Assembly: GCA_016187335.1 (NCBI GenBank)
Contig: JACPJW010000001.1
Location: 640,001 to 704,000 of the forward strand
Direction: 5' to 3'
Length of the DNA: 64,000 bases
Source of the DNA: Candidatus Aenigmatarchaeota archaeon
Lineage (GTDB): Archaea; Aenigmatarchaeota; Aenigmatarchaeia; GW2011-AR5
Part shown: in pieces, positions 18,631 through 50,711 of the stretch
How positions within the stretch are numbered: position 1 is the stretch's first letter
Layout of the letters: each line of letters opens with the position of its first letter
The notes under the pieces: model-generated
Database searches by the model: none
What the model saw: the letters and a program-made list of their open reading frames with translations, nothing else
Told to the model about the DNA's origin: nothing
Program-made: the position numbers and the translations under genes

Positions 18631-18867
18631 CTACGCCTTCACCTTCAGCGCCTTCTCCAGCGCAGGGCGATCAAAGCCAACAATAATCTTGCCGTCCACG
18701 TCGATTACGGGGACGCCCATCTGGCCGCTTTTCTCAATCATTTCTTCGGCGGCTTTCTCGTCCAGCTCGACGTTCACTTCCTCGTATTTCACGCTGTTCT
18801 TCTTGAAGAAGTCTTTAGCCATGTTACAGTAAGGGCAGTGGGTCGTCGTGTAGATTTTTACGTGCAT
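18631..18867 (-). CDS. Glutaredoxin/NrdH-like protein (copy 1)
   Basis: CPYC, GQMGVPVI, IVGFD. Confidence 0.92.
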   Translation of the reverse strand: MHVKIYTTTHCPYCNMAKDFFKKNSVKYEEVNVELDEKAAEEMIEKSGQMGVPVIDVDGKIIVGFDRPALEKALKVKA

Positions 18868-23909: not shown

Positions 23910-24155
23910 TTACGAAGCTTTTACCATGCTTTTAAGTGCCTTTTCCAGCGCAGGCCTGTCAAAGCCGACAATTATTTTCCCGTCAATATCAATGACAGGG
24001 ACGCCCATCTGTCCTGATTTCTTGGTCATTTCCTCGGCGGCTTTCTCGTCATTTTCCACGTTAATTTCTTCATACTTCACATTATTCTTCTTGAAGAAGT
24101 CTTTTGCCATCTTGCAGTAAGGGCAGTATGTAGTTGTGTAGATTTTTACTGTCAT
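23910..24155 (-). CDS. Glutaredoxin/NrdH-like protein (copy 2)
   Basis: CPYC; close paralog of 18631-18867; SD GGTGAT before ATG 24155. Confidence 0.92.
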   Translation of the reverse strand: MTVKIYTTTYCPYCKMAKDFFKKNNVKYEEINVENDEKAAEEMTKKSGQMGVPVIDIDGKIIVGFDRPALEKALKSMVKAS

Positions 24156-44658: not shown

Positions 44659-44817
44659 ATGCCAACAAAAAAATCTTCAGCGAAGCAAAAATTATACAAA
44701 TGTAAGCACTGCGGTTTTGGTTACAGAGAGAAAAAATGGCAGCGCGCCTGCGAAGCATGGTGCTCGAAGCACAACAGCTGCAACATCATGATAACGAGGC
44801 ACGTAGTGAAGAAGTGA
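44659..44817 (+). CDS. 52-aa Cys/His microprotein
   Basis: YKCKHCGFGYREKKWQRACEAWCSKHNSCNIMITRH; SD GGTGGT. Confidence 0.75.
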   Translation: MPTKKSSAKQKLYKCKHCGFGYREKKWQRACEAWCSKHNSCNIMITRHVVKK

Positions 44818-44819
44818 TT

Positions 44820-45248
44820 TCAGCCTTTCAGTATTCTGAGCACGCATATTCCCTGCGCCGTGCGGAAAAAAACCATTAGTTTGTGGTACTCCCCATCCTT
44901 GACATTCACATTCTCGGTTCTTTTTATGCTGGATTTCAGCGTATCAATTATCCTTTTTATCCTCTCGGCATAAGGCTTTTCCTTGCGTTCGTAGTCGGAA
45001 GCGAATTTTCTTGCAAGCCTCAGGTTATACGCGCAATATTGCATTTTGCCGCTGCGGAAGTTTTCCGAAGCCCTTACAAGATATGTGTATATCCTGAGGT
45101 AAAAAATTATTTTCCTGTGCTCTTTTTGCTCAAAGCTTATGAAGTCTTCTAAATACAACTCTATTTTTTTGAGATCCTGCAGTCGCAACAACCTGTCAAG
45201 CTTTATTTTTTCGAGTTCTTTTAGCCGGAAAAACTTTTCAACTTTCAT
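44820..45248 (-). CDS. Hypothetical helical protein coupled to the amidohydrolase
   Basis: ATGA overlap at 45245-45248. Confidence 0.6.
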   Translation of the reverse strand: MKVEKFFRLKELEKIKLDRLLRLQDLKKIELYLEDFISFEQKEHRKIIFYLRIYTYLVRASENFRSGKMQYCAYNLRLARKFASDYERKEKPYAERIKRIIDTLKSSIKRTENVNVKDGEYHKLMVFFRTAQGICVLRILKG

Positions 45249-46045
45249 TCAAACCACTTCTGCAGGTTTCCAGACAAAATATTTCCCAGATCGCGCATCG
45301 AAATGTTAAGGATACTTGCGACATGAATTATGGATTCCAGCGAATAGTCGCAGCTTACATAAGGAACGTCAGAACCATATACTATGCTTGTTTTGTCCGC
45401 TTTGTCTATGAGGTTGTAAAGGTCAAATACGCTTGTCGCCGACGTTTCGAAATAAACATACCTTGATTTTGACATTTTTCTGATGACCCTGTCCATGTCG
45501 ATAAAAGCTGAATGACCTAAAATAAGGCGGAGTCTCGGGAAATCTTTCACGACCATTTCCAGTTCGACCGATATTTCATTCAGCCCGTGACCTGTATGTA
45601 TCAGCACTGGTAAGTCGTGCTTTTCTGCTTTGGCATATACTTTCATTGCTTCGTCGGATGCAATGTCAAAATGCTGCGAGCGTGGATGCAGCTTTATGCC
45701 CATGAATCCCTGTGATGCACGCTTCTCAAACTCTTCTTTCCATTTTCTTTTTGGATTCAGGCGAAAGAATGGAATAAGCTTTCTCTTGTGGGATTTGTAA
45801 GCGTTGTATACAAAGTCGTTTGGCTTTGAAAAACTCTGGTCGTAGGGATCATTTAGTGGAAATATAACTGCCTTTTCTATTCTGCAGCTTTTGATATCCT
45901 TCATCAACTCATTTAATGAAAAAAGTGTTCCGTCCTTGTCTTTGCCTATGTGTGTATGAGCATCCCATACCTCGAACTGGTCGAAAACCCACTCTGCTAC
46001 CTTGAAAGCTTTCTCGCCAACAAAGTATTTTGTCCATTTAGGCAT
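45245..46045 (-). CDS. Amidohydrolase-superfamily metallohydrolase
   Basis: DAHTH, IKLHP, LIHTG, ILGHS, YGSDVP. Confidence 0.88.
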   Translation of the reverse strand: MPKWTKYFVGEKAFKVAEWVFDQFEVWDAHTHIGKDKDGTLFSLNELMKDIKSCRIEKAVIFPLNDPYDQSFSKPNDFVYNAYKSHKRKLIPFFRLNPKRKWKEEFEKRASQGFMGIKLHPRSQHFDIASDEAMKVYAKAEKHDLPVLIHTGHGLNEISVELEMVVKDFPRLRLILGHSAFIDMDRVIRKMSKSRYVYFETSATSVFDLYNLIDKADKTSIVYGSDVPYVSCDYSLESIIHVASILNISMRDLGNILSGNLQKWFE

Positions 46046-46094
46046 AATGACACAGAAAACTATGAGATTTAAATCTTTTATACATTTTTATTCC

Positions 46095-47027
46095 ATGTTA
46101 AAGATAGGAATCGTTTTTGACAGGGTCAAATGGATTCAAAGACCTTTCGACAAGAGGTACTCTTATTCTTACAGGATTCTGTCAAAGGTGGCAAGACAGC
46201 ACGGCATTGAAGTCTATATAAGCGACCTGAAAAATTACAGGGCGAGAAAATTTGCAAAATGCTGGTTTTGCGAAAAAAGTTGGAAAATACTCCGCAACAG
46301 GTATATTGACATGGTTTTTGACAAAATGAGCACTTCCGGCAGGAATGTCCTGAAAAGAATGCGGGTGAGAATGATGAGGGAATTGCCTATTGTTAACCAC
46401 CCCGAACTGAACGAAATTTCTGAGGACAAGTATCTTTCTTATACGATCTTCCGGGAATATTTCCCGAAAACATACCTTCTAAGCACAAGCGGCATAAGGA
46501 AGGCTCCGGCAGGACTTTATGTAATGAAACCTAGGCACGGCTCAAGAGGAGAATTTATCAGAATAATGGAAAAGGAAAAGCTACAACCGAAGAAAGACTT
46601 TATTTTTCAGGAATTCATCGACACGTCAGGCGGCATTAAGGATGTCATAAACAAAGTTCACGACTTGAGGCTGGTCTCAATAAACGGAAAAATAATCAAG
46701 GCATACCTTAGAGTCCAAAAAAAAGGCATTATAAACAATATGGATACCGGAGAGTTTGAGATTCATATCGAAAAATCTAAAGTACCAGAAAGCGCAGTTA
46801 AAATATTCAGGATAGTTGACAGGAAACTTAGTAAGTACGATTTCAGGTTCTATACAATAGATTTTTTGGTTGACAAAGATCAGAAACCTTGGATATGCGA
46901 GCTAAACACTCATCTGGGTCTGGGGATTGCAGGTAAAAAAACGAAAGAAATATATTTTAACATGTACAGAGAAATTCTGCTTGCTATGAAAAGGTATTAT
47001 CTAAAACTCGGGTCCGGAAAAAACTAG
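46095..47027 (+). CDS. ATP-grasp protein A (degenerate motifs)
   Basis: DKYLSY, VMKPRHGSRG, FQEFID, HDLR, IDFL...CELN. Confidence 0.82.
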   Translation: MLKIGIVFDRVKWIQRPFDKRYSYSYRILSKVARQHGIEVYISDLKNYRARKFAKCWFCEKSWKILRNRYIDMVFDKMSTSGRNVLKRMRVRMMRELPIVNHPELNEISEDKYLSYTIFREYFPKTYLLSTSGIRKAPAGLYVMKPRHGSRGEFIRIMEKEKLQPKKDFIFQEFIDTSGGIKDVINKVHDLRLVSINGKIIKAYLRVQKKGIINNMDTGEFEIHIEKSKVPESAVKIFRIVDRKLSKYDFRFYTIDFLVDKDQKPWICELNTHLGLGIAGKKTKEIYFNMYREILLAMKRYYLKLGSGKN

Positions 47028-47030
47028 ACT

Positions 47031-47963
47031 CTAGCCAATGCAGGATTTTACCGCCTTCATGATGCACCTGCAGATTTTTTTATAGATTTTCTGTTGCCCG
47101 CCCACCTTTATTTTGTAATACAATCGAAATCCGGGATGCGAGTTGAGTTCGATTATCCAAGGCCTCTGTTTCTTGTCAATTAGAAAATCAATCGAATAAA
47201 GCCTAGGAACAAATTTATTGAATTTGCTGTCAACATAATTTGCTATTCTCATGACTTTTTTAGGGATTTTCCTTATTCTTACGAGTCTGCCGCCAAGCGA
47301 AATGTTGCTAATAAGACCCTTTCTAGGAACCCTGAGGTAAAAATCCAGAATTTTTCCGTTTAGAACCAGCAGCCTAAGGTCGTGAATTCCTTTGTACACG
47401 CCTTTTATTCCTGCGGATGTGTCTACAAATTCCTGCACTATATAGTCTTTCTTCAGTTTTCTTAGCCTGTACTTTTCCATTACCTTGACGCCCGCACCAC
47501 CGGCACCGAATCTCGGCTTCACAACGGCAAGACGGTTTTTGATTTTTTTTAATCCTTTCAGGGAAATGGAAGTTTTCGGAACGTACCTTCTGAATAACTT
47601 GTGCGTGAGATATTTGTCGTTGCATAGATCCTCAATAAAAGGGTCGTTCATCATCAATAACACTTTCTTAAATTTTTTTCTCAGGTTCCGCATGAAATCA
47701 TGGTGCTTCCTGTTGAAGCTTAAAACCCTGTCAAAAACGAAATTGACAGGCACGCTTTTCTCTTTTCTTTTTTCAAGCAGGTTCCAGCACAGAAGAAATT
47801 TCCCTCTATTGTACCATTCTGGCTTCGCTACAACGACCTTTACACCAATTTTCTTTGCAACCTCAGAGAATTTCCTATAAGCTTTGAAGGTACTGCGATC
47901 ATTGAAAGGCTTGTTCAGAAAAATGCCGTCAGTATCATTATACGTTATTCCCAGAGTTTTCAT
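47031..47963 (-). CDS. ATP-grasp ligase B (RimK/YheCD-like)
   Basis: CNDKY, VKPRFGAGGAG, VQEFVD, HDLR, SNISLGG, IELNSHPG. Confidence 0.85.
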   Translation of the reverse strand: MKTLGITYNDTDGIFLNKPFNDRSTFKAYRKFSEVAKKIGVKVVVAKPEWYNRGKFLLCWNLLEKRKEKSVPVNFVFDRVLSFNRKHHDFMRNLRKKFKKVLLMMNDPFIEDLCNDKYLTHKLFRRYVPKTSISLKGLKKIKNRLAVVKPRFGAGGAGVKVMEKYRLRKLKKDYIVQEFVDTSAGIKGVYKGIHDLRLLVLNGKILDFYLRVPRKGLISNISLGGRLVRIRKIPKKVMRIANYVDSKFNKFVPRLYSIDFLIDKKQRPWIIELNSHPGFRLYYKIKVGGQQKIYKKICRCIMKAVKSCIG

Positions 47964-47967
47964 GAAA

Positions 47968-49338
47968 TCACTCCGCAAGTCTTGATACAAGCTTTTTTGT
48001 ATTCTCTATGTCCTTTTCAATGTTTCGCGATATTCTGAGCGCAATATCTGCTGCTGCTTTGTTTGGCAAAGATTCTTTATAACCTATTTTTCTTGCTTCA
48101 GAAATTATCTCATCCGACACGGTTTTTTTCTTCTGGACCATTTCTTTAAGCGGCTTAAGGAATTTTTTTCTGTCAGAAGGCAATATCTTGGAAGCCAGTT
48201 TCAGGAAGCGCGAACAGCAAAGCCTTAAATCAGGGCTTTCCATCCCGTAAAGCGCTGAATCGCGCTGCAGCACGTTGTAAACGTAGCTGTAAGGCGGTAT
48301 GAATATTCTGTCGCCTTCCATTTTGAACGGCTCGCGTATCGCAATGTCGCTGTCAACAACATTCACATAATCTTCATGGATTGATTTCAAAATGAACTTC
48401 ATTGTTACAGCCAGCGACGCCAGAACTTCAAACCTGTTCATGTCCATGCCGCGCATCTCAAAAGTGCCGTTAGGGTTTATCTTCACAGGCGACCAGTTAG
48501 TGTCAAGAACAGAACCGTAGAGGGCTAGTGTTTTGATGTTAATTCCCAGCTTCTTGATAAGCAGCGACCATTCCCTGAATCTGTCATCTATCAAGTGCAT
48601 TATGTCAAGAAGCGTGTGATGATAAGGCGGCAGCCCGCCGAAATCGTGGAAATCAGAGTACAAGCCGTCAACGCCAAAAATCCTGCTGCCTCTGTAAAAC
48701 ATCAGCCGCGAATCCTTGCCGTAAAGCCTTCCCTCATAATAAGGCGAAGACTGGGCGAATGTCGTGAACACGGGATCCATCGCAACAAGCATGTTGTAGC
48801 TTCCGACCATTGTCTGGCTTATCCTGGATTTAATGAAAATTTTCAGATGCTTGCTGATGTAATCAAACATGCCCCTCGGCAAGGTATAGTGGCAATGGAA
48901 GCCGATGCAACGGCCGGCAATCTTGAATCTTTCTTTTCCGAATATCTTCTCCTTTATTCCGTAGCCTCCTTTCTTTCTCATTGAAGGGCTGAATTTTCCC
49001 GGATATGTTCCGTAGAAGTAAGGCATGTAACCCATTTTTTCCATGGCGTCAAGAAGCTGCTGGGTTCTTTCAAGCATATCGTGCATTGTGCCAGTTATTG
49101 TCCGGGAAGGAAACGTATCGATTTCAATCATGTTATTGGCGCATTCTTTCTTCGCGTTGCCCGGAATTTTTTCTAGGATTTTGTCTGCAGAATGCGAAAC
49201 ATTGCCATCGCTGTCAATTATCATGAACTCTGCTTCAAGCCCTATCATATGATGTTTCAATGAGCGTTTCCGCATTCCCAAGATTTTTCTTAGGTCCTCG
49301 GCTATTTCTTCTGCTATGTTAGGATTTTTTTCTTTCAT
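47968..49338 (-). CDS. Glutamate-cysteine ligase family 2 (GCS2/YbdK-like) carboxylate-amine ligase
   Basis: GLEAEF, MIEID, GFHCH, SPYYEG...SR, TFEMRGMD. Confidence 0.8.
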   Translation of the reverse strand: MKEKNPNIAEEIAEDLRKILGMRKRSLKHHMIGLEAEFMIIDSDGNVSHSADKILEKIPGNAKKECANNMIEIDTFPSRTITGTMHDMLERTQQLLDAMEKMGYMPYFYGTYPGKFSPSMRKKGGYGIKEKIFGKERFKIAGRCIGFHCHYTLPRGMFDYISKHLKIFIKSRISQTMVGSYNMLVAMDPVFTTFAQSSPYYEGRLYGKDSRLMFYRGSRIFGVDGLYSDFHDFGGLPPYHHTLLDIMHLIDDRFREWSLLIKKLGINIKTLALYGSVLDTNWSPVKINPNGTFEMRGMDMNRFEVLASLAVTMKFILKSIHEDYVNVVDSDIAIREPFKMEGDRIFIPPYSYVYNVLQRDSALYGMESPDLRLCCSRFLKLASKILPSDRKKFLKPLKEMVQKKKTVSDEIISEARKIGYKESLPNKAAADIALRISRNIEKDIENTKKLVSRLAE

Positions 49339-49399
49339 TGATATTCCCGAATAGAATTAGATTTCATTTATTTTAAAGAGTTAAAAGAATAATTCAGCG

Positions 49400-50617
49400 T
49401 TAAGCAATCACGCCGTAGCCGATCAAATGCCATCTTCCGCCGACCTGGGCGGCTATGGCGACCTTGTCGCCTTTATCCGCGCACACGGGCAGTTTTAGTT
49501 TGAGCTGTACAGTTTTACCGCCTGCTGACGTGACTGCGCCCACGGTCTTCGCTATCGCAACTGTTATCAGCAGGGCATCGCCTGTCTTCGGCGGCGAAAC
49601 CTTTTGCTGGCCTTCCACCCCGATGACGTAGCTGAAAAGTTCCACGTTCAGCTTTATTTCCTCGTGCACAGGCGGAAGTTTTTCGGGCAGGCCGATGATG
49701 TTTCCGACAATGCCGTCGCCCCTCGTTATCGCAGGATCCAGTTCTGTTTGAAGCGCTACGAGGCCGCCGGGCTTCGCTTCCTGCAGCTGCTGGCCGGATT
49801 CCACAATCTCGGTTATCTTTGTCCTCATCGGAGTCCATTTTCCGCTCACCTGCACGCCGGGCCGGATCTCGATTTCCTGGTTCACGCGAAGCACACCTTC
49901 CGTAAGCGACCCGCCTGCGACGCCGCCTTCTAATTGCTCAATATCGGTTCCGGGCTTGTTCACATCAAAGCTGCGCGCGACGTAGAACCTGGGATCATCA
50001 CCGAGATTTCTTTCCGGCGTGGGCATAAACTGCTCAATTGCGTCTATGAGCGCGTCTATGTTTGCGTTGTTTATGGCGCTTACGGGAATCACGGGCGCGT
50101 TCTCGGCCACGGTGCCCTTGACGAATTTCTTTATTTCCTCATAGCTTTCGAGCGCCCGCTCCTCGCTGACAAGGTCAACCTTGTTCTGGACAATGATTAT
50201 CTTTCTTATGCCCACAATGTCCAGGGCTTTCAGGTGCTCCGCTGTCTGCGGCTGCGGGCATTTTTCGTTGGCGGCTATTACAAGCAGCGCCCCGTCCATG
50301 AGCGCAGCGCCGCTCAGTACCGTTGCCATCAGTGTTTCGTGCCCCGGGGCATCGACAAAAGAAACAGCCCTTTTCGGCTCGGCGCTTTCAAAGCAGGAAG
50401 AGCATTTTGGAGCATTGCTGTACTTCATGCATTTATTGCAGTAATAGAAAACGGCGTCGGCGTAGCCCAGTCTTATAGTAATGCCGCGCTTGATTTCTTC
50501 GCTGTGGGTGTCGGTCCACTTTCCCGTTATCGCCTGGTTTAATGTGGTTTTTCCGTGGTCGACGTGGCCGACTATTCCTATGTTTACCTCGGGAATCAGG
50601 TCTTTCTTTTCTTTCAT
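49400..50617 (-). CDS. eif2g: Translation initiation factor aIF2 gamma
   Basis: GHVDHGKTT, EEIKRGITIRLGY, DAPGHE, WHLIGYG. Confidence 0.96.
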   Translation of the reverse strand: MKEKKDLIPEVNIGIVGHVDHGKTTLNQAITGKWTDTHSEEIKRGITIRLGYADAVFYYCNKCMKYSNAPKCSSCFESAEPKRAVSFVDAPGHETLMATVLSGAALMDGALLVIAANEKCPQPQTAEHLKALDIVGIRKIIIVQNKVDLVSEERALESYEEIKKFVKGTVAENAPVIPVSAINNANIDALIDAIEQFMPTPERNLGDDPRFYVARSFDVNKPGTDIEQLEGGVAGGSLTEGVLRVNQEIEIRPGVQVSGKWTPMRTKITEIVESGQQLQEAKPGGLVALQTELDPAITRGDGIVGNIIGLPEKLPPVHEEIKLNVELFSYVIGVEGQQKVSPPKTGDALLITVAIAKTVGAVTSAGGKTVQLKLKLPVCADKGDKVAIAAQVGGRWHLIGYGVIA

Positions 50618-50711
50618 TTCAGTTTTTGTTTGTGCGAAATCAATCACCCTTTTTGATGCTCAGAAAGCAAAGCTTTCTGGCATTGCCAAAATCCTTTGGA
50701 TTTTGCGCAAT

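What the first reader, a model, noticed from the sequence alone, without database searches (positions are those of the whole stretch)
44820..49338. Candidate new biosynthetic cluster: GCS2 ligase + two ATP-grasp enzymes + amidohydrolase
The GCS2/YbdK-like gamma-glutamyl ligase is directly followed by ATP-grasp B, which converges on paralog A. Paralog A is divergent from an amidohydrolase and a coupled helical protein. GCS plus ATP-grasp is the logic of glutathione synthesis (GshA+GshB), but these ATP-grasps look RimK/YheCD-like rather than GshB. The cluster adjoins trxB and sod. Inference: an unknown gamma-glutamyl peptide or thiol, or a protein/cofactor glutamylation system with its own erasing hydrolase.
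Basis: partly seen in the sequence, partly recalled or inferred. Interest (0 to 1): 0.72.

Follow-up and report, generated by a model that had tools for sequence, protein, structure and literature searches.

The report
DPANN peptide ligase-hydrolase gene module

Summary
All five genes are at the stated coordinates and in the stated orientations.

Across 84 related loci from DPANN archaea and CPR bacteria, the constant partner of this divergent GCS2 ligase is a hydrolase. It is one of three unrelated, mutually exclusive types:
- FGase, 27 loci
- Amidohydro_2, 17 loci
- peptidase M29, 5 loci

An ATP-grasp ligase is an optional extra, present in 18 loci. The small helical protein belongs to the amidohydrolase. 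It nearly always follows that gene and is fused to it in three protein clusters.

The closest relative has one ATP-grasp in a colinear four-gene operon. ATP-grasp A is therefore an extra, inverted, fast-diverging paralog so far seen only in this genome, with its catalytic motifs intact.

The trxB/sod adjacency is not conserved. The genome has no gamma-glutamyltranspeptidase (GGT) or glutathione peroxidase. The ATP-grasps fail every GshB test. Instead, the family's neighbourhoods are enriched about fivefold in MscS channels and Na+/H+ exchangers, with trehalose-synthase and sugar-phosphate-synthase genes also nearby.

My best reading is a build-and-cleave module for a small gamma-glutamyl-type peptide, tied to solute or stress homeostasis. 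The product is unknown. I rate it a new variant of a known kind, of moderate interest.

Earlier notes of this scan, on other genomes, describe related cassettes, two of them also linked to MscS.

The parts
47968..49338 (-). GCS2-family (YbdK/plant-GCL fold) carboxylate-amine ligase, 456 aa, with a conserved helical extension of about 100 aa at the C-terminus
   Evidence: Pfam PF04107, 35.4 bits against a cut-off of 21. NCBIfam equivalogs score only 15-25 bits against cut-offs of 176-437. AF2 model has pLDDT 87.8. Best Foldseek matches are 2gwc, 1r8g and 1tt4 at E about 1e-11. 256 homologs, with strongly conserved motifs.
47031..47963 (-). ATP-grasp B, a RimK/YheCD-like ligase of 310 aa. It is the ancestral partner of GCS2 in this lineage.
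   Evidence: Pfam and NCBIfam hits. 51% identical to the single ATP-grasp of the closest relative's operon and 59% to that of L035. The residues invariant across the six aligned homologs are kept, among them K149, D195-L196-R197, D259 and E272, and the E-L-N motif is present.
46095..47027 (+). ATP-grasp A, an inverted, fast-diverged paralog of B, 310 aa, with conserved motifs intact
   Evidence: 37% identical to B over the full length. Only 34% identical to the relative's ATP-grasp. No close homolog found other than itself, by a word-index search that also failed to list paralog B. Invariant ATP-grasp residues retained.
45245..46045 (-). Amidohydro_2-family metal hydrolase (AMH), 266 aa
   Evidence: PF04909, 3.2e-18. 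Family invariants D28, H30, H32, K118, H150, H178 and D226. Closest solved structure is 3cjp, uncharacterised, at 1.9e-20 with the family profile. Next to GCS2 in 17 of 84 loci.
44820..45248 (-). Helical-bundle accessory protein (HEL), 142 aa, translationally coupled to AMH
   Evidence: No Pfam or NCBIfam match. AF2 model has pLDDT 83 and five helices, with no PDB match at E <= 0.001, best 0.056. Follows AMH in 12 of its 13 loci. Family of only 54 representative clusters, three of them Amidohydro_2::HEL fusions. Conserved motifs YLRIYT and AQNICILRILK.
46046..46094 (.). 49-nt divergent intergenic region between AMH and ATP-grasp A, with A/T-rich TATA-like boxes facing both ways
   Evidence: Read directly from the sequence. 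Promoter function is inferred.
49339..49399 (-). 61-nt region upstream of GCS2 with a TATA-like TTTAAAATA about 30 nt before the ATG. It probably serves as the promoter of the GCS2 / ATP-grasp B unit.
   Evidence: Read directly from the sequence. Inferred.

Best explanation
The five genes form one functional module that makes and cleaves a small amide-linked compound, most likely a short gamma-glutamyl-type peptide.

Proposed steps, all inferred from family chemistry:
1. The GCS2 enzyme uses ATP to join a carboxylate, probably the gamma-carboxyl of glutamate, to the amino group of an unknown amino acid or amine.
2. The RimK-like ATP-grasp B extends the product at a free alpha-carboxylate, probably with glutamate. 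The extra paralog A adds a further or alternative residue.
3. The metal amidohydrolase, working as a complex with its helical partner, hydrolyses the product or trims it.

The module is accessory. It is patchily spread among ultra-small archaea (DPANN) and bacteria (CPR). From its recurrent neighbours, it most likely serves solute, ion or osmotic-stress homeostasis rather than a dedicated thiol-redox role.

What is shown and what is not:
- Shown: gene linkage, fold assignments, conserved catalytic residues, the AMH-HEL partnership and the neighbourhood statistics.
- Not shown: the substrates, the product and the physiological role.
For: Linkage:
- GCS2, AMH, HEL and the ATP-grasp recur together in at least six different gene orders and orientations across divergent lineages.
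- A hydrolase lies within 4 genes of GCS2 in 49 of 84 loci: FGase 27, AMH 17, M29 5. The three types never occur together and are interleaved on the GCS2 tree, a pattern of non-orthologous displacement.
- Reverse test: strong AMH homologs in the phylum sit next to GCS2 in 7 genomes. They sit next to a very divergent 597-aa GCS2 in G128 and between two RimK-like ligases in G122.
- AMH::HEL fusions exist.

Enzymes look active:
- GCS2 has a confident GCL/YbdK fold and invariant acidic, His and Arg motifs.
- AMH keeps the full HxH-K-H-H-D set.
- Both ATP-grasps keep the residues invariant across the six aligned homologs and the E-L-N motif.
- The nearest solved relatives of the ATP-grasps are glutamate ligases: TTLL6/7, RimK and LysX.

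Role:
- MscS-type genes make up 19 of 580 ORFs within 4 genes of GCS2, against 5 of 736 farther out (Fisher p = 6e-4).
- Na+/H+ exchangers are 10 against 2 (p = 0.007).
- TreT, a GT+HAD sugar-phosphate synthase and inositol monophosphatase (IMPase) are also present, sometimes interleaved between AMH-HEL and GCS2.
- The own genome has only 2 MscS genes in 1 Mb.
Against: - No substrate or product is known, and nothing was assayed.
- This window itself has no osmotic genes next to the cluster. Its MscS genes lie far away.
- Loci are phylogenetically non-independent, so the enrichment p-values overstate. MscS is nearby in 8 of 25 identity groups.
- 35 of 84 loci show no hydrolase nearby. Five such genomes also lack FGase anywhere.
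- Many solved Amidohydro_2 enzymes are decarboxylases or hydratases, not amidases, so the "cleaves the product" step is inferred mainly from its displacement by FGase and M29.
- The hydrolase could act before the ligase rather than after.
Confidence: 0.45

Rival explanations
1. A low-molecular-weight thiol pathway. GCS2 makes gamma-Glu-Cys, the ATP-grasps add one or two residues (GshB-like or glutathionylspermidine-synthetase-like), and the amidohydrolase recycles the thiol.
For: - Best fold matches of GCS2 are genuine glutamate-cysteine ligases and YbdK.
- ATP-grasp B gives weak GSH-S_ATP and GshB hits.
- Some loci carry a GSP_synth/CP-ATP-grasp-like ligase instead.
- Adjacent "GshAB" genes are annotated in cultivated nanohaloarchaea, by annotation only (PMC10266531).
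- One Cys is invariant in the GCS2 family.
Against: - The trxB/sod adjacency is absent from the closest relative and from all other loci.
- An ATP-grasp accompanies GCS2 in only 18 of 84 loci.
- GshB and GCL equivalog scores lie far below their cut-offs.
- No GshB N-domain was detected.
- No GGT, and no glutathione peroxidase above cut-off, in a 91%-complete genome.
- Recurrent neighbours are osmotic and ion genes, not redox genes.
- An earlier scan note on another genome also found a GCS2/thiol-gene adjacency to be accidental (e1-1108034).
Confidence: 0.2
2. A protein or cofactor glutamylation system with an eraser. The ligases add Glu residues to a protein C-terminus or side chain, or to a cofactor tail (RimK/TTLL/CofF/MptN-like, or PafA/Dop-like for GCS2). 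AMH:HEL removes them.
For: - The closest solved relatives of the ATP-grasps are protein glutamylases: TTLL6/7, RimK and LysX.
- MptN and CofF give weak NCBIfam hits.
- Dop and PafA share the GCS2 fold, at E about 1e-4.
- Related ATP-grasps in CPR sit in RimK / retropepsin-like (Zn_protease) operons.
- HEL has an invariant Glu.
Against: - No conserved candidate substrate with an acidic C-terminal tail. HEL ends in ...LRILK(G), and its fusion to AMH marks it as a hydrolase subunit rather than a target.
- No Pup-like or LysW-like gene was seen.
- DPANN generally lack F420 and H4MPT pathways (general knowledge, not tested here).
- GCS2, not the ATP-grasp, is the constant component.
Confidence: 0.15
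3. A salvage pipeline in which the hydrolase acts first. AMH:HEL (or FGase, or M29 in other lineages) frees an amino acid or amine from a compound scavenged from the host. The ligases then capture it.
For: - DPANN and CPR depend on scavenging (general knowledge).
- The three alternative hydrolases all release amino acids from N-acyl amino acids or peptides, by family annotation.
- FGase sits directly upstream of, and co-directional with, GCS2 in most of its loci.
Against: - In AMH-type loci the hydrolase lies either upstream or downstream of GCS2.
- No transporter is consistently linked.
- The data cannot separate this reading from build-and-cleave.
Confidence: 0.12
4. The genes are unrelated neighbours in a compact genome.
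For: - Intergenic distances are small everywhere in this 1-Mb genome.
- The cluster is split into three transcription units here.
Against: - The same four families recur together in different orders in distant lineages.
- AMH::HEL fusions exist.
Confidence: 0.02

Closest known systems
YbdK / plant-type glutamate-cysteine ligase (Pfam GCS2, PF04107; PDB 1r8g, 1tt4, 2gwc)
   Same: Same fold (Foldseek E about 1e-11, TM 0.6-0.78). Passes the Pfam GCS2 cut-off. The N-terminal strand with the two Glu residues aligns to YbdK.
   Different: Only 13-15% identity. Scores 15-25 bits against NCBIfam GCL and YbdK models whose cut-offs are 176-437. It carries an extra conserved C-terminal helical region of about 100 aa. 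It is restricted to DPANN and CPR. Its substrate is unknown.
GshA + GshB glutathione synthesis, and GshF
   Same: A GCS-fold ligase is followed directly by an ATP-grasp ligase.
   Different: The ATP-grasp is RimK/YheCD-like, with no match to the GshB N-domain family in the Pfam scan and far below the GshB cut-offs. It is optional across the family. A hydrolase is the conserved partner. No GSH-using enzymes were found.
RimK / RimB, and the CPR "7TM-transglutaminase + ATPgrasp_ST::Zn_protease + RimK-like" operons (alpha-L-glutamate ligase plus trimming protease)
   Same: The ATP-grasps are 30-38% identical to the RimK-like genes of those operons. Both follow build-and-trim logic, pairing a ligase with a hydrolase.
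   Different: Here the partner ligase is a GCS2 enzyme and the hydrolase is an Amidohydro_2:HEL pair. There is no 7TM-transglutaminase and no retropepsin-like protease. TIGR00768 scores 43-50 bits against a cut-off of 143.
FluG and bacterial Amidohydro_2 plus gamma-glutamyl ligase (GS-like) pairs (PMC6478659)
   Same: An amidohydrolase-superfamily enzyme is coupled to a gamma-glutamyl-type carboxylate-amine ligase of unknown substrate. A gamma-glutamylated intermediate is proposed there too.
   Different: The FluG ligase is GS type I-like, not GCS2. The two domains are fused in FluG. It has no ATP-grasp and no HEL.
Amidoligase gene neighbourhoods predicted by Iyer, Abhiman, Burroughs and Aravind 2009 (Mol Biosyst 5:1636; cited from memory, the paper was not held)
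   Same: The general idea: ATP-grasp and GCS/GS-like amidoligases cluster with peptidases or amidohydrolases to make novel peptides or peptide tags.
   Different: I could not check whether this DPANN/CPR GCS2-Amidohydro_2-HEL combination is described there. DPANN genomes were largely unavailable in 2009.

Membership tests
Pfam GCS2 (PF04107) / YbdK-type carboxylate-amine ligases | Score above the Pfam gathering cut-off | tested here: met
   35.4 bits against a cut-off of 21
Pfam GCS2 (PF04107) / YbdK-type carboxylate-amine ligases | GCL/YbdK three-dimensional fold | tested here: met
   AF2 pLDDT 87.8. Foldseek gives 2gwc, 1r8g and 1tt4 at E about 1e-11, probability 1.00.
Glutamate-cysteine ligase / YbdK equivalogs (NCBIfam NF010043, NF010039, NF010040, TIGR02050) | Score above the curated equivalog or subfamily cut-off | tested here: not met
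   15-25 bits against cut-offs of 176-437
Glutamate-cysteine ligase | Uses L-Glu and L-Cys as substrates | not testable with these tools
   Needs an enzyme assay or gshA complementation.
Glutathione synthetase GshB | Score above the GshB equivalog cut-offs, and presence of the GshB N-terminal substrate domain | tested here: not met
   19.5-29 bits against cut-offs of 272-299. Only the generic ATP-grasp half (GSH-S_ATP, 24 bits) matches in B, and nothing matches in A.
GshA+GshB pathway | The two ligases co-occur consistently | tested here: not met
   An ATP-grasp of any type lies within 4 genes of GCS2 in 18 of 84 loci.
RimK family alpha-L-glutamate ligases | Pfam RimK domain, and the TIGR00768 subfamily cut-off | tested here: inconclusive
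   Pfam RimK scores 32.2 bits for B and 21.0 for A, against a cut-off of 21. TIGR00768 scores 49.5 and 42.8 against a cut-off of 143.4. They are ATP-grasps of the RimK-like assemblage but not members of the curated subfamily.
ATP-grasp superfamily | Conserved ATP- and Mg-binding residues (Lys in KPR, the QEF hinge, DLR, and the D...E-x-N metal ligands) | tested here: met
   Both paralogs keep them. The functional roles of these residues are from general knowledge of ATP-grasp enzymes.
Amidohydrolase superfamily (Amidohydro_2, PF04909) | Pfam cut-off, and the metal-ligand set HxH, Lys, His, His, Asp | tested here: met
   66.9 bits against a cut-off of 26.4. D28, H30, H32, K118, H150, H178 and D226 are invariant in 17 sequences. 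Which reaction it catalyses (amide hydrolysis, decarboxylation or hydration) was not tested.
LysW/LysX amino-group carrier system | Small carrier protein with an acidic C-terminal tail ending in Glu | tested here: not met
   HEL ends in the conserved AQNICILRILK motif, and it is fused to the hydrolase in some lineages.
Pup / PafA / Dop tagging | Pup-like tag gene and PafA/Dop-type ligase | tested here: not met
   Dop and PafA are only distant fold matches (E about 1e-4, TM 0.3-0.44). No small disordered tag gene was seen in the cluster.
Known anti-phage defence systems (PADLOC) | Match to any PADLOC model | tested here: not met
   No hits for any of the five proteins.

The most novel reading that the evidence does not exclude
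Ultra-small episymbionts of both domains (DPANN archaea and CPR bacteria) share a previously unknown small peptide metabolite. It would be built by a private clade of GCS2 ligases, optionally extended by RimK-like ligases, and taken apart by interchangeable hydrolases. The cell would use it to adjust its solute pool (an osmolyte, a K+/Mg2+ counter-ion, or a stored amino-acid reserve), or else it would be a new low-molecular-weight thiol.
Probability: 0.3. Interest if true: 0.75.

Novelty: new variant of a known kind. Interest (0 to 1): 0.55.

Why it matters
DPANN and CPR organisms have stripped-down metabolism, so an accessory enzyme module kept and exchanged among them probably meets a real need of the episymbiotic lifestyle.

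The module gives a concrete four-gene target for biochemistry: a ligase, one or two extension ligases, and a two-part hydrolase. The product could be a new compatible solute, counter-ion peptide or thiol.

It also assigns a partner, and therefore a likely role, to an orphan helical protein family. And it gives a clean natural example of three unrelated hydrolase folds replacing one another beside the same ligase.

Tried and rejected
Rejected readings:
- trxB/sod linkage as a functional clue. It is absent from the closest relative and from all 84 loci.
- eIF2-gamma adjacency, considered because the eIF2-gamma assembly factor CDC123 belongs to the ATP-grasp superfamily (PMC4431377). It is seen only here and about 3 kb away in one brine contig, L121. 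I treat it as chance.
- HEL as a carrier or tag protein. Rejected because of the AMH::HEL fusions and its non-acidic C-terminus.
- HEL fold assignment. Foldseek against the PDB and the ESM Atlas gave only generic helical bundles.
- The C-terminal extension of the G128 AMH as a hidden HEL. hhalign probability is 0.2%, so no.
- A defence system. PADLOC found nothing.
- A search for close orthologs of ATP-grasp A found none. This was a word-index search, which also failed to list paralog B.

Tools and sources that were unavailable:
- The fold library pdb_via_wide was not installed.
- The Iyer et al. 2009 paper is not held.

Literature searches found no description of this module. The only related item was an annotation-level "GshAB" in nanohaloarchaea.


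Full report
**1. The observation**

- HEL, 44820-45248 (-), 142 aa, no family match.
- AMH, 45245-46045 (-), Amidohydro_2 at 3.2e-18.
- ATP-grasp A (+) and ATP-grasp B (-), both with weak RimK, YheCD, ATP-grasp_3 and TTL matches.
- A GCS2-family ligase, 47968-49338 (-), PF04107 at 35.4 bits against a cut-off of 21.

AMH and HEL overlap by 4 nt. The GCS2 stop and the ATG of B are 4 nt apart. The stops of A and B are 3 nt apart.

The best starts are ATG 46095 for A and ATG 47963 for B, making both 310 aa. Homologs align from these starts, and the public gene call for A is the same form.

The flanks are trxB and sod on one side, and eIF2-gamma, S6e, a methyltransferase, an SDR and aIF5B on the other. 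TATA-like boxes lie upstream of GCS2 and in the 49-nt divergent spacer between AMH and A. The cluster is therefore probably three transcription units: GCS2-B, A, and AMH-HEL.

**2. The organism and the family**

The genome is a 1.01-Mb, 91%-complete DPANN archaeon. The nearest named relative of its GCS2 gene is annotated Candidatus Aenigmatarchaeota.

The GCS2 protein has 256 homologs in the 5.8-billion-protein set, nearly all unnamed. A scan of GTDB species genomes found 120 loci. By record title they come from Woesearchaeota, Aenigmatarchaeota, Nanoarchaeota, Iainarchaeota/Diapherotrites, Micrarchaeota and Nanohalarchaeota, and also from CPR bacteria: Parcubacteria/Paceibacterota, Magasanikbacteria and Saccharibacteria. 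Some "Methanosarcinales" and "Gammaproteobacteria" titles look like placeholder names. I did not verify that.

Within the window's own phylum the gene is patchy. It occurs in 18 of 371 genomes, and in only 1 of 43 other genomes of its own family. It is an accessory gene.

**3. The individual proteins**

GCS2:
- The AF2 model is confident (pLDDT 87.8, pTM 0.89).
- It matches plant glutamate-cysteine ligase and YbdK best (E about 1e-11). GshA, GshF, Dop/PafA and glutamine synthetases follow.
- By sequence it is remote. A family profile reaches YbdK at only 1.6e-6. NCBIfam GCL and YbdK models score 15-25 bits against cut-offs of 176-437.
- The family alignment shows strongly conserved motifs: GxExE, HxH, QSSP, GKDSR..YRG and GTxExRGMD. 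A helical region of about 100 aa at the C-terminus is also conserved.

ATP-grasps:
- A and B are 37% identical.
- Both keep the residues invariant across the six aligned homologs, including those I read from general knowledge as the ATP- and Mg-binding set.
- The nearest solved relatives are weak hits to TTLL6/7 polyglutamylases, RimK and LysX.

AMH:
- It keeps the complete amidohydrolase-superfamily set, invariant in 17 sequences: D28, H30, H32, K118, H150, H178 and D226.
- Its closest solved structure is the uncharacterised 3cjp. Next come LigW/LigY-type Amidohydro_2 enzymes, several of which are decarboxylases or hydratases.
- Its exact reaction is therefore open.

HEL:
- It models as a helical bundle (pLDDT 83) with no informative structural match.

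**4. Synteny**

I called ORFs in 84 GCS2 loci, clustered them, and annotated the recurrent families with Pfam and custom HMMs.

A hydrolase lies within four genes of GCS2 in 49 of 84 loci:

| Hydrolase | Loci | Position |
|---|---|---|
| FGase (PF05013) | 27 | usually directly upstream and co-directional |
| AMH | 17 | upstream or downstream |
| Peptidase M29 | 5 | usually directly upstream |

The three never occur together in these loci. They are interleaved on the GCS2 tree. This is the pattern expected if unrelated hydrolases have replaced one another in the same role.

An ATP-grasp is present in only 18 loci and is of three kinds: the RimK-like type found here (6), a circularly permuted / GSP-synthetase-like type (8), and a third RimK-like type (4).

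AMH-type loci show many arrangements:
- GCS2>AMH>HEL
- AMH>HEL>GCS2
- GCS2>GRASP>AMH>HEL
- GCS2>AMH>GRASP>HEL
- AMH>HEL>GRASP>GCS2
- GCS2>HEL<AMH<CP-grasp<

Selection for linkage best explains such variety, not shared ancestry of one operon.

The reverse test also holds:
- Strong AMH homologs in the phylum sit beside GCS2 in seven genomes.
- In G128 the AMH homolog lies one gene from a very divergent 597-aa GCS2, with a VWA gene between them.
- In G122 it lies next to two RimK-like ligases.

**5. HEL belongs to the hydrolase**

HEL follows AMH in 12 of its 13 loci; in L035 an ATP-grasp gene sits between them. An exhaustive profile search of 1.84 billion representative proteins found only 54 clusters. 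Three of these, of 422-439 aa, are Amidohydro_2::HEL fusions. HEL is therefore an accessory subunit or domain of the amidohydrolase, not a substrate or carrier.

**6. ATP-grasp A is an extra copy**

The closest relative is G192/L032, whose GCS2 is 63% identical. It has a colinear operon GCS2>GRASP>AMH>HEL with a single ATP-grasp. That ATP-grasp is 51% identical to B and 34% to A.

In the window, an inverted paralog sits between B and AMH and splits the operon. No close homolog of A turned up elsewhere, though the word-index search used also failed to list B. Its motifs are intact, so I read it as a functional, fast-evolving duplicate.

**7. What the wider ATP-grasp family does**

I scanned metagenomes with the ATP-grasp alignment. 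Most relatives, at 30-35% identity, lie in a recurrent CPR-bacterial operon. This operon comprises a 7TM_transglut protein, an ATPgrasp_ST::Zn_protease fusion, a RimK-like ligase, further ATP-grasps and YdjC, next to a PBP1a gene. It is a RimK-type ligase-plus-protease system.

Only 3 of the 80 loci carry GCS2. The ATP-grasp is thus a mobile "extension" component that different systems recruit.

**8. Physiological context**

The thiol reading is not supported:
- The trxB/sod adjacency is unique to this genome.
- The genome has two glutaredoxin-like genes, but no GGT and no glutathione peroxidase above cut-off.
- The review PMC7278568 notes DPANN hits to GshA families and no archaeal GshB.
- PMC10266531 annotates adjacent "GshAB" genes in nanohaloarchaea, without experiment.

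GCS2 neighbourhoods are instead enriched in osmotic and ion-homeostasis genes:

| Gene type | Within 4 genes | Farther out | Fisher p |
|---|---|---|---|
| MscS-type channels | 19 of 580 ORFs | 5 of 736 | 6e-4 |
| Na+/H+ exchangers | 10 of 580 ORFs | 2 of 736 | 0.007 |

- Trehalose synthase TreT, a GT+HAD sugar-phosphate synthase, inositol monophosphatase (IMPase) and an AI-2E transporter also recur.
- These genes sometimes sit between AMH-HEL and GCS2, as in L036, L044 and L050.
- 26 of 84 loci have at least one such gene nearby.
- MscS is nearby in 8 of 25 GCS2 identity groups.
- This genome has only two MscS genes, both far from the cluster.

The loci are related to one another, so the p-values overstate. 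The window itself shows no such neighbour. I treat the osmotic link as the best available lead, not a result.

Earlier notes of this scan on other genomes (e1-1417658, e1-3881670) independently report ligase/hydrolase cassettes linked to MscS channels. I used them as leads only.

**9. Interpretation**

The module is a build-and-cleave system for a small amide-linked compound.
1. GCS2 makes the first bond, by family precedent a gamma-glutamyl amide.
2. The RimK-like ligases extend it.
3. AMH:HEL, or FGase or M29 in other lineages, cleaves it.

The rivals are a new thiol, protein or cofactor glutamylation with an eraser, and a hydrolase-first salvage route. The data here exclude none of them, and I give them lower odds.

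The nearest conceptual relatives are the RimK/RimB-type systems, FluG-type amidohydrolase plus gamma-glutamyl-ligase pairs (PMC6478659), and the amidoligase neighbourhoods predicted by Iyer et al. 2009. I could not read that last paper.

I found no description of this GCS2-Amidohydro_2-HEL module in the papers searched.

**10. Verdict**

The cluster and its eraser are real, but the thiol link is not conserved.
- Novelty: a new variant of a known kind.
- Interest is moderate. The module is conserved, spans both domains among ultra-small organisms, is biochemically tractable and has an unknown product.

Noticed in passing
window 44659-44817 (+): An unannotated 52-codon ORF lies between sod and the HEL stop. 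It encodes a Lys- and Cys-rich peptide with a CxxC and several further Cys residues, zinc-ribbon-like in appearance. It has no Pfam match, and I did not check its conservation.
   Followed up: partly
window 18682-18861 (-) and 23970-24149 (-): The only two glutaredoxin-family (PF00462) genes of the genome both lie in this window, in the same 30-kb stretch as the thiol-redox operon noted by earlier readers, and trxB and sod.
   Followed up: no
L173:5859-10560 (similar in L145, L163, L180 and about 40 other metagenome loci): A recurrent CPR-bacterial operon: a 7TM_transglut protein, an ATPgrasp_ST fused to a Zn_protease (retropepsin-like) domain, a RimK-like ligase, one or two further ATP-grasps, and YdjC. 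It lies between ruvC/yebC and a PBP1a gene. It looks like an uncharacterised envelope-associated peptide-ligation system.
   Followed up: partly
L195:2490-6703 (G128): A very divergent 597-aa GCS2-family protein, a VWA-domain protein, and a 408-aa Amidohydro_2 with an unrecognised C-terminal extension of about 150 aa form a second, distinct ligase-hydrolase cassette in the same phylum.
   Followed up: partly
L188:1-16864: A metagenome contig carries three M29 peptidase genes, an Amidohydro-like gene and an FGase gene around two tandem RimK-like ATP-grasps. All three hydrolase types are together here, with no GCS2.
   Followed up: no
window 49400-50647 (-) and L121:7449-8612: eIF2-gamma lies directly upstream of GCS2 in the window, and about 3 kb from a GCS2/ATP-grasp pair in one brine contig. 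The eukaryotic eIF2-gamma assembly factor CDC123 belongs to the ATP-grasp superfamily (PMC4431377). The adjacency is absent from the other 83 loci and is probably chance.
   Followed up: partly
L079 and L088: Tandem duplications of the GCS2 gene itself. In L088 the whole M29-GCS2 pair is duplicated.
   Followed up: no
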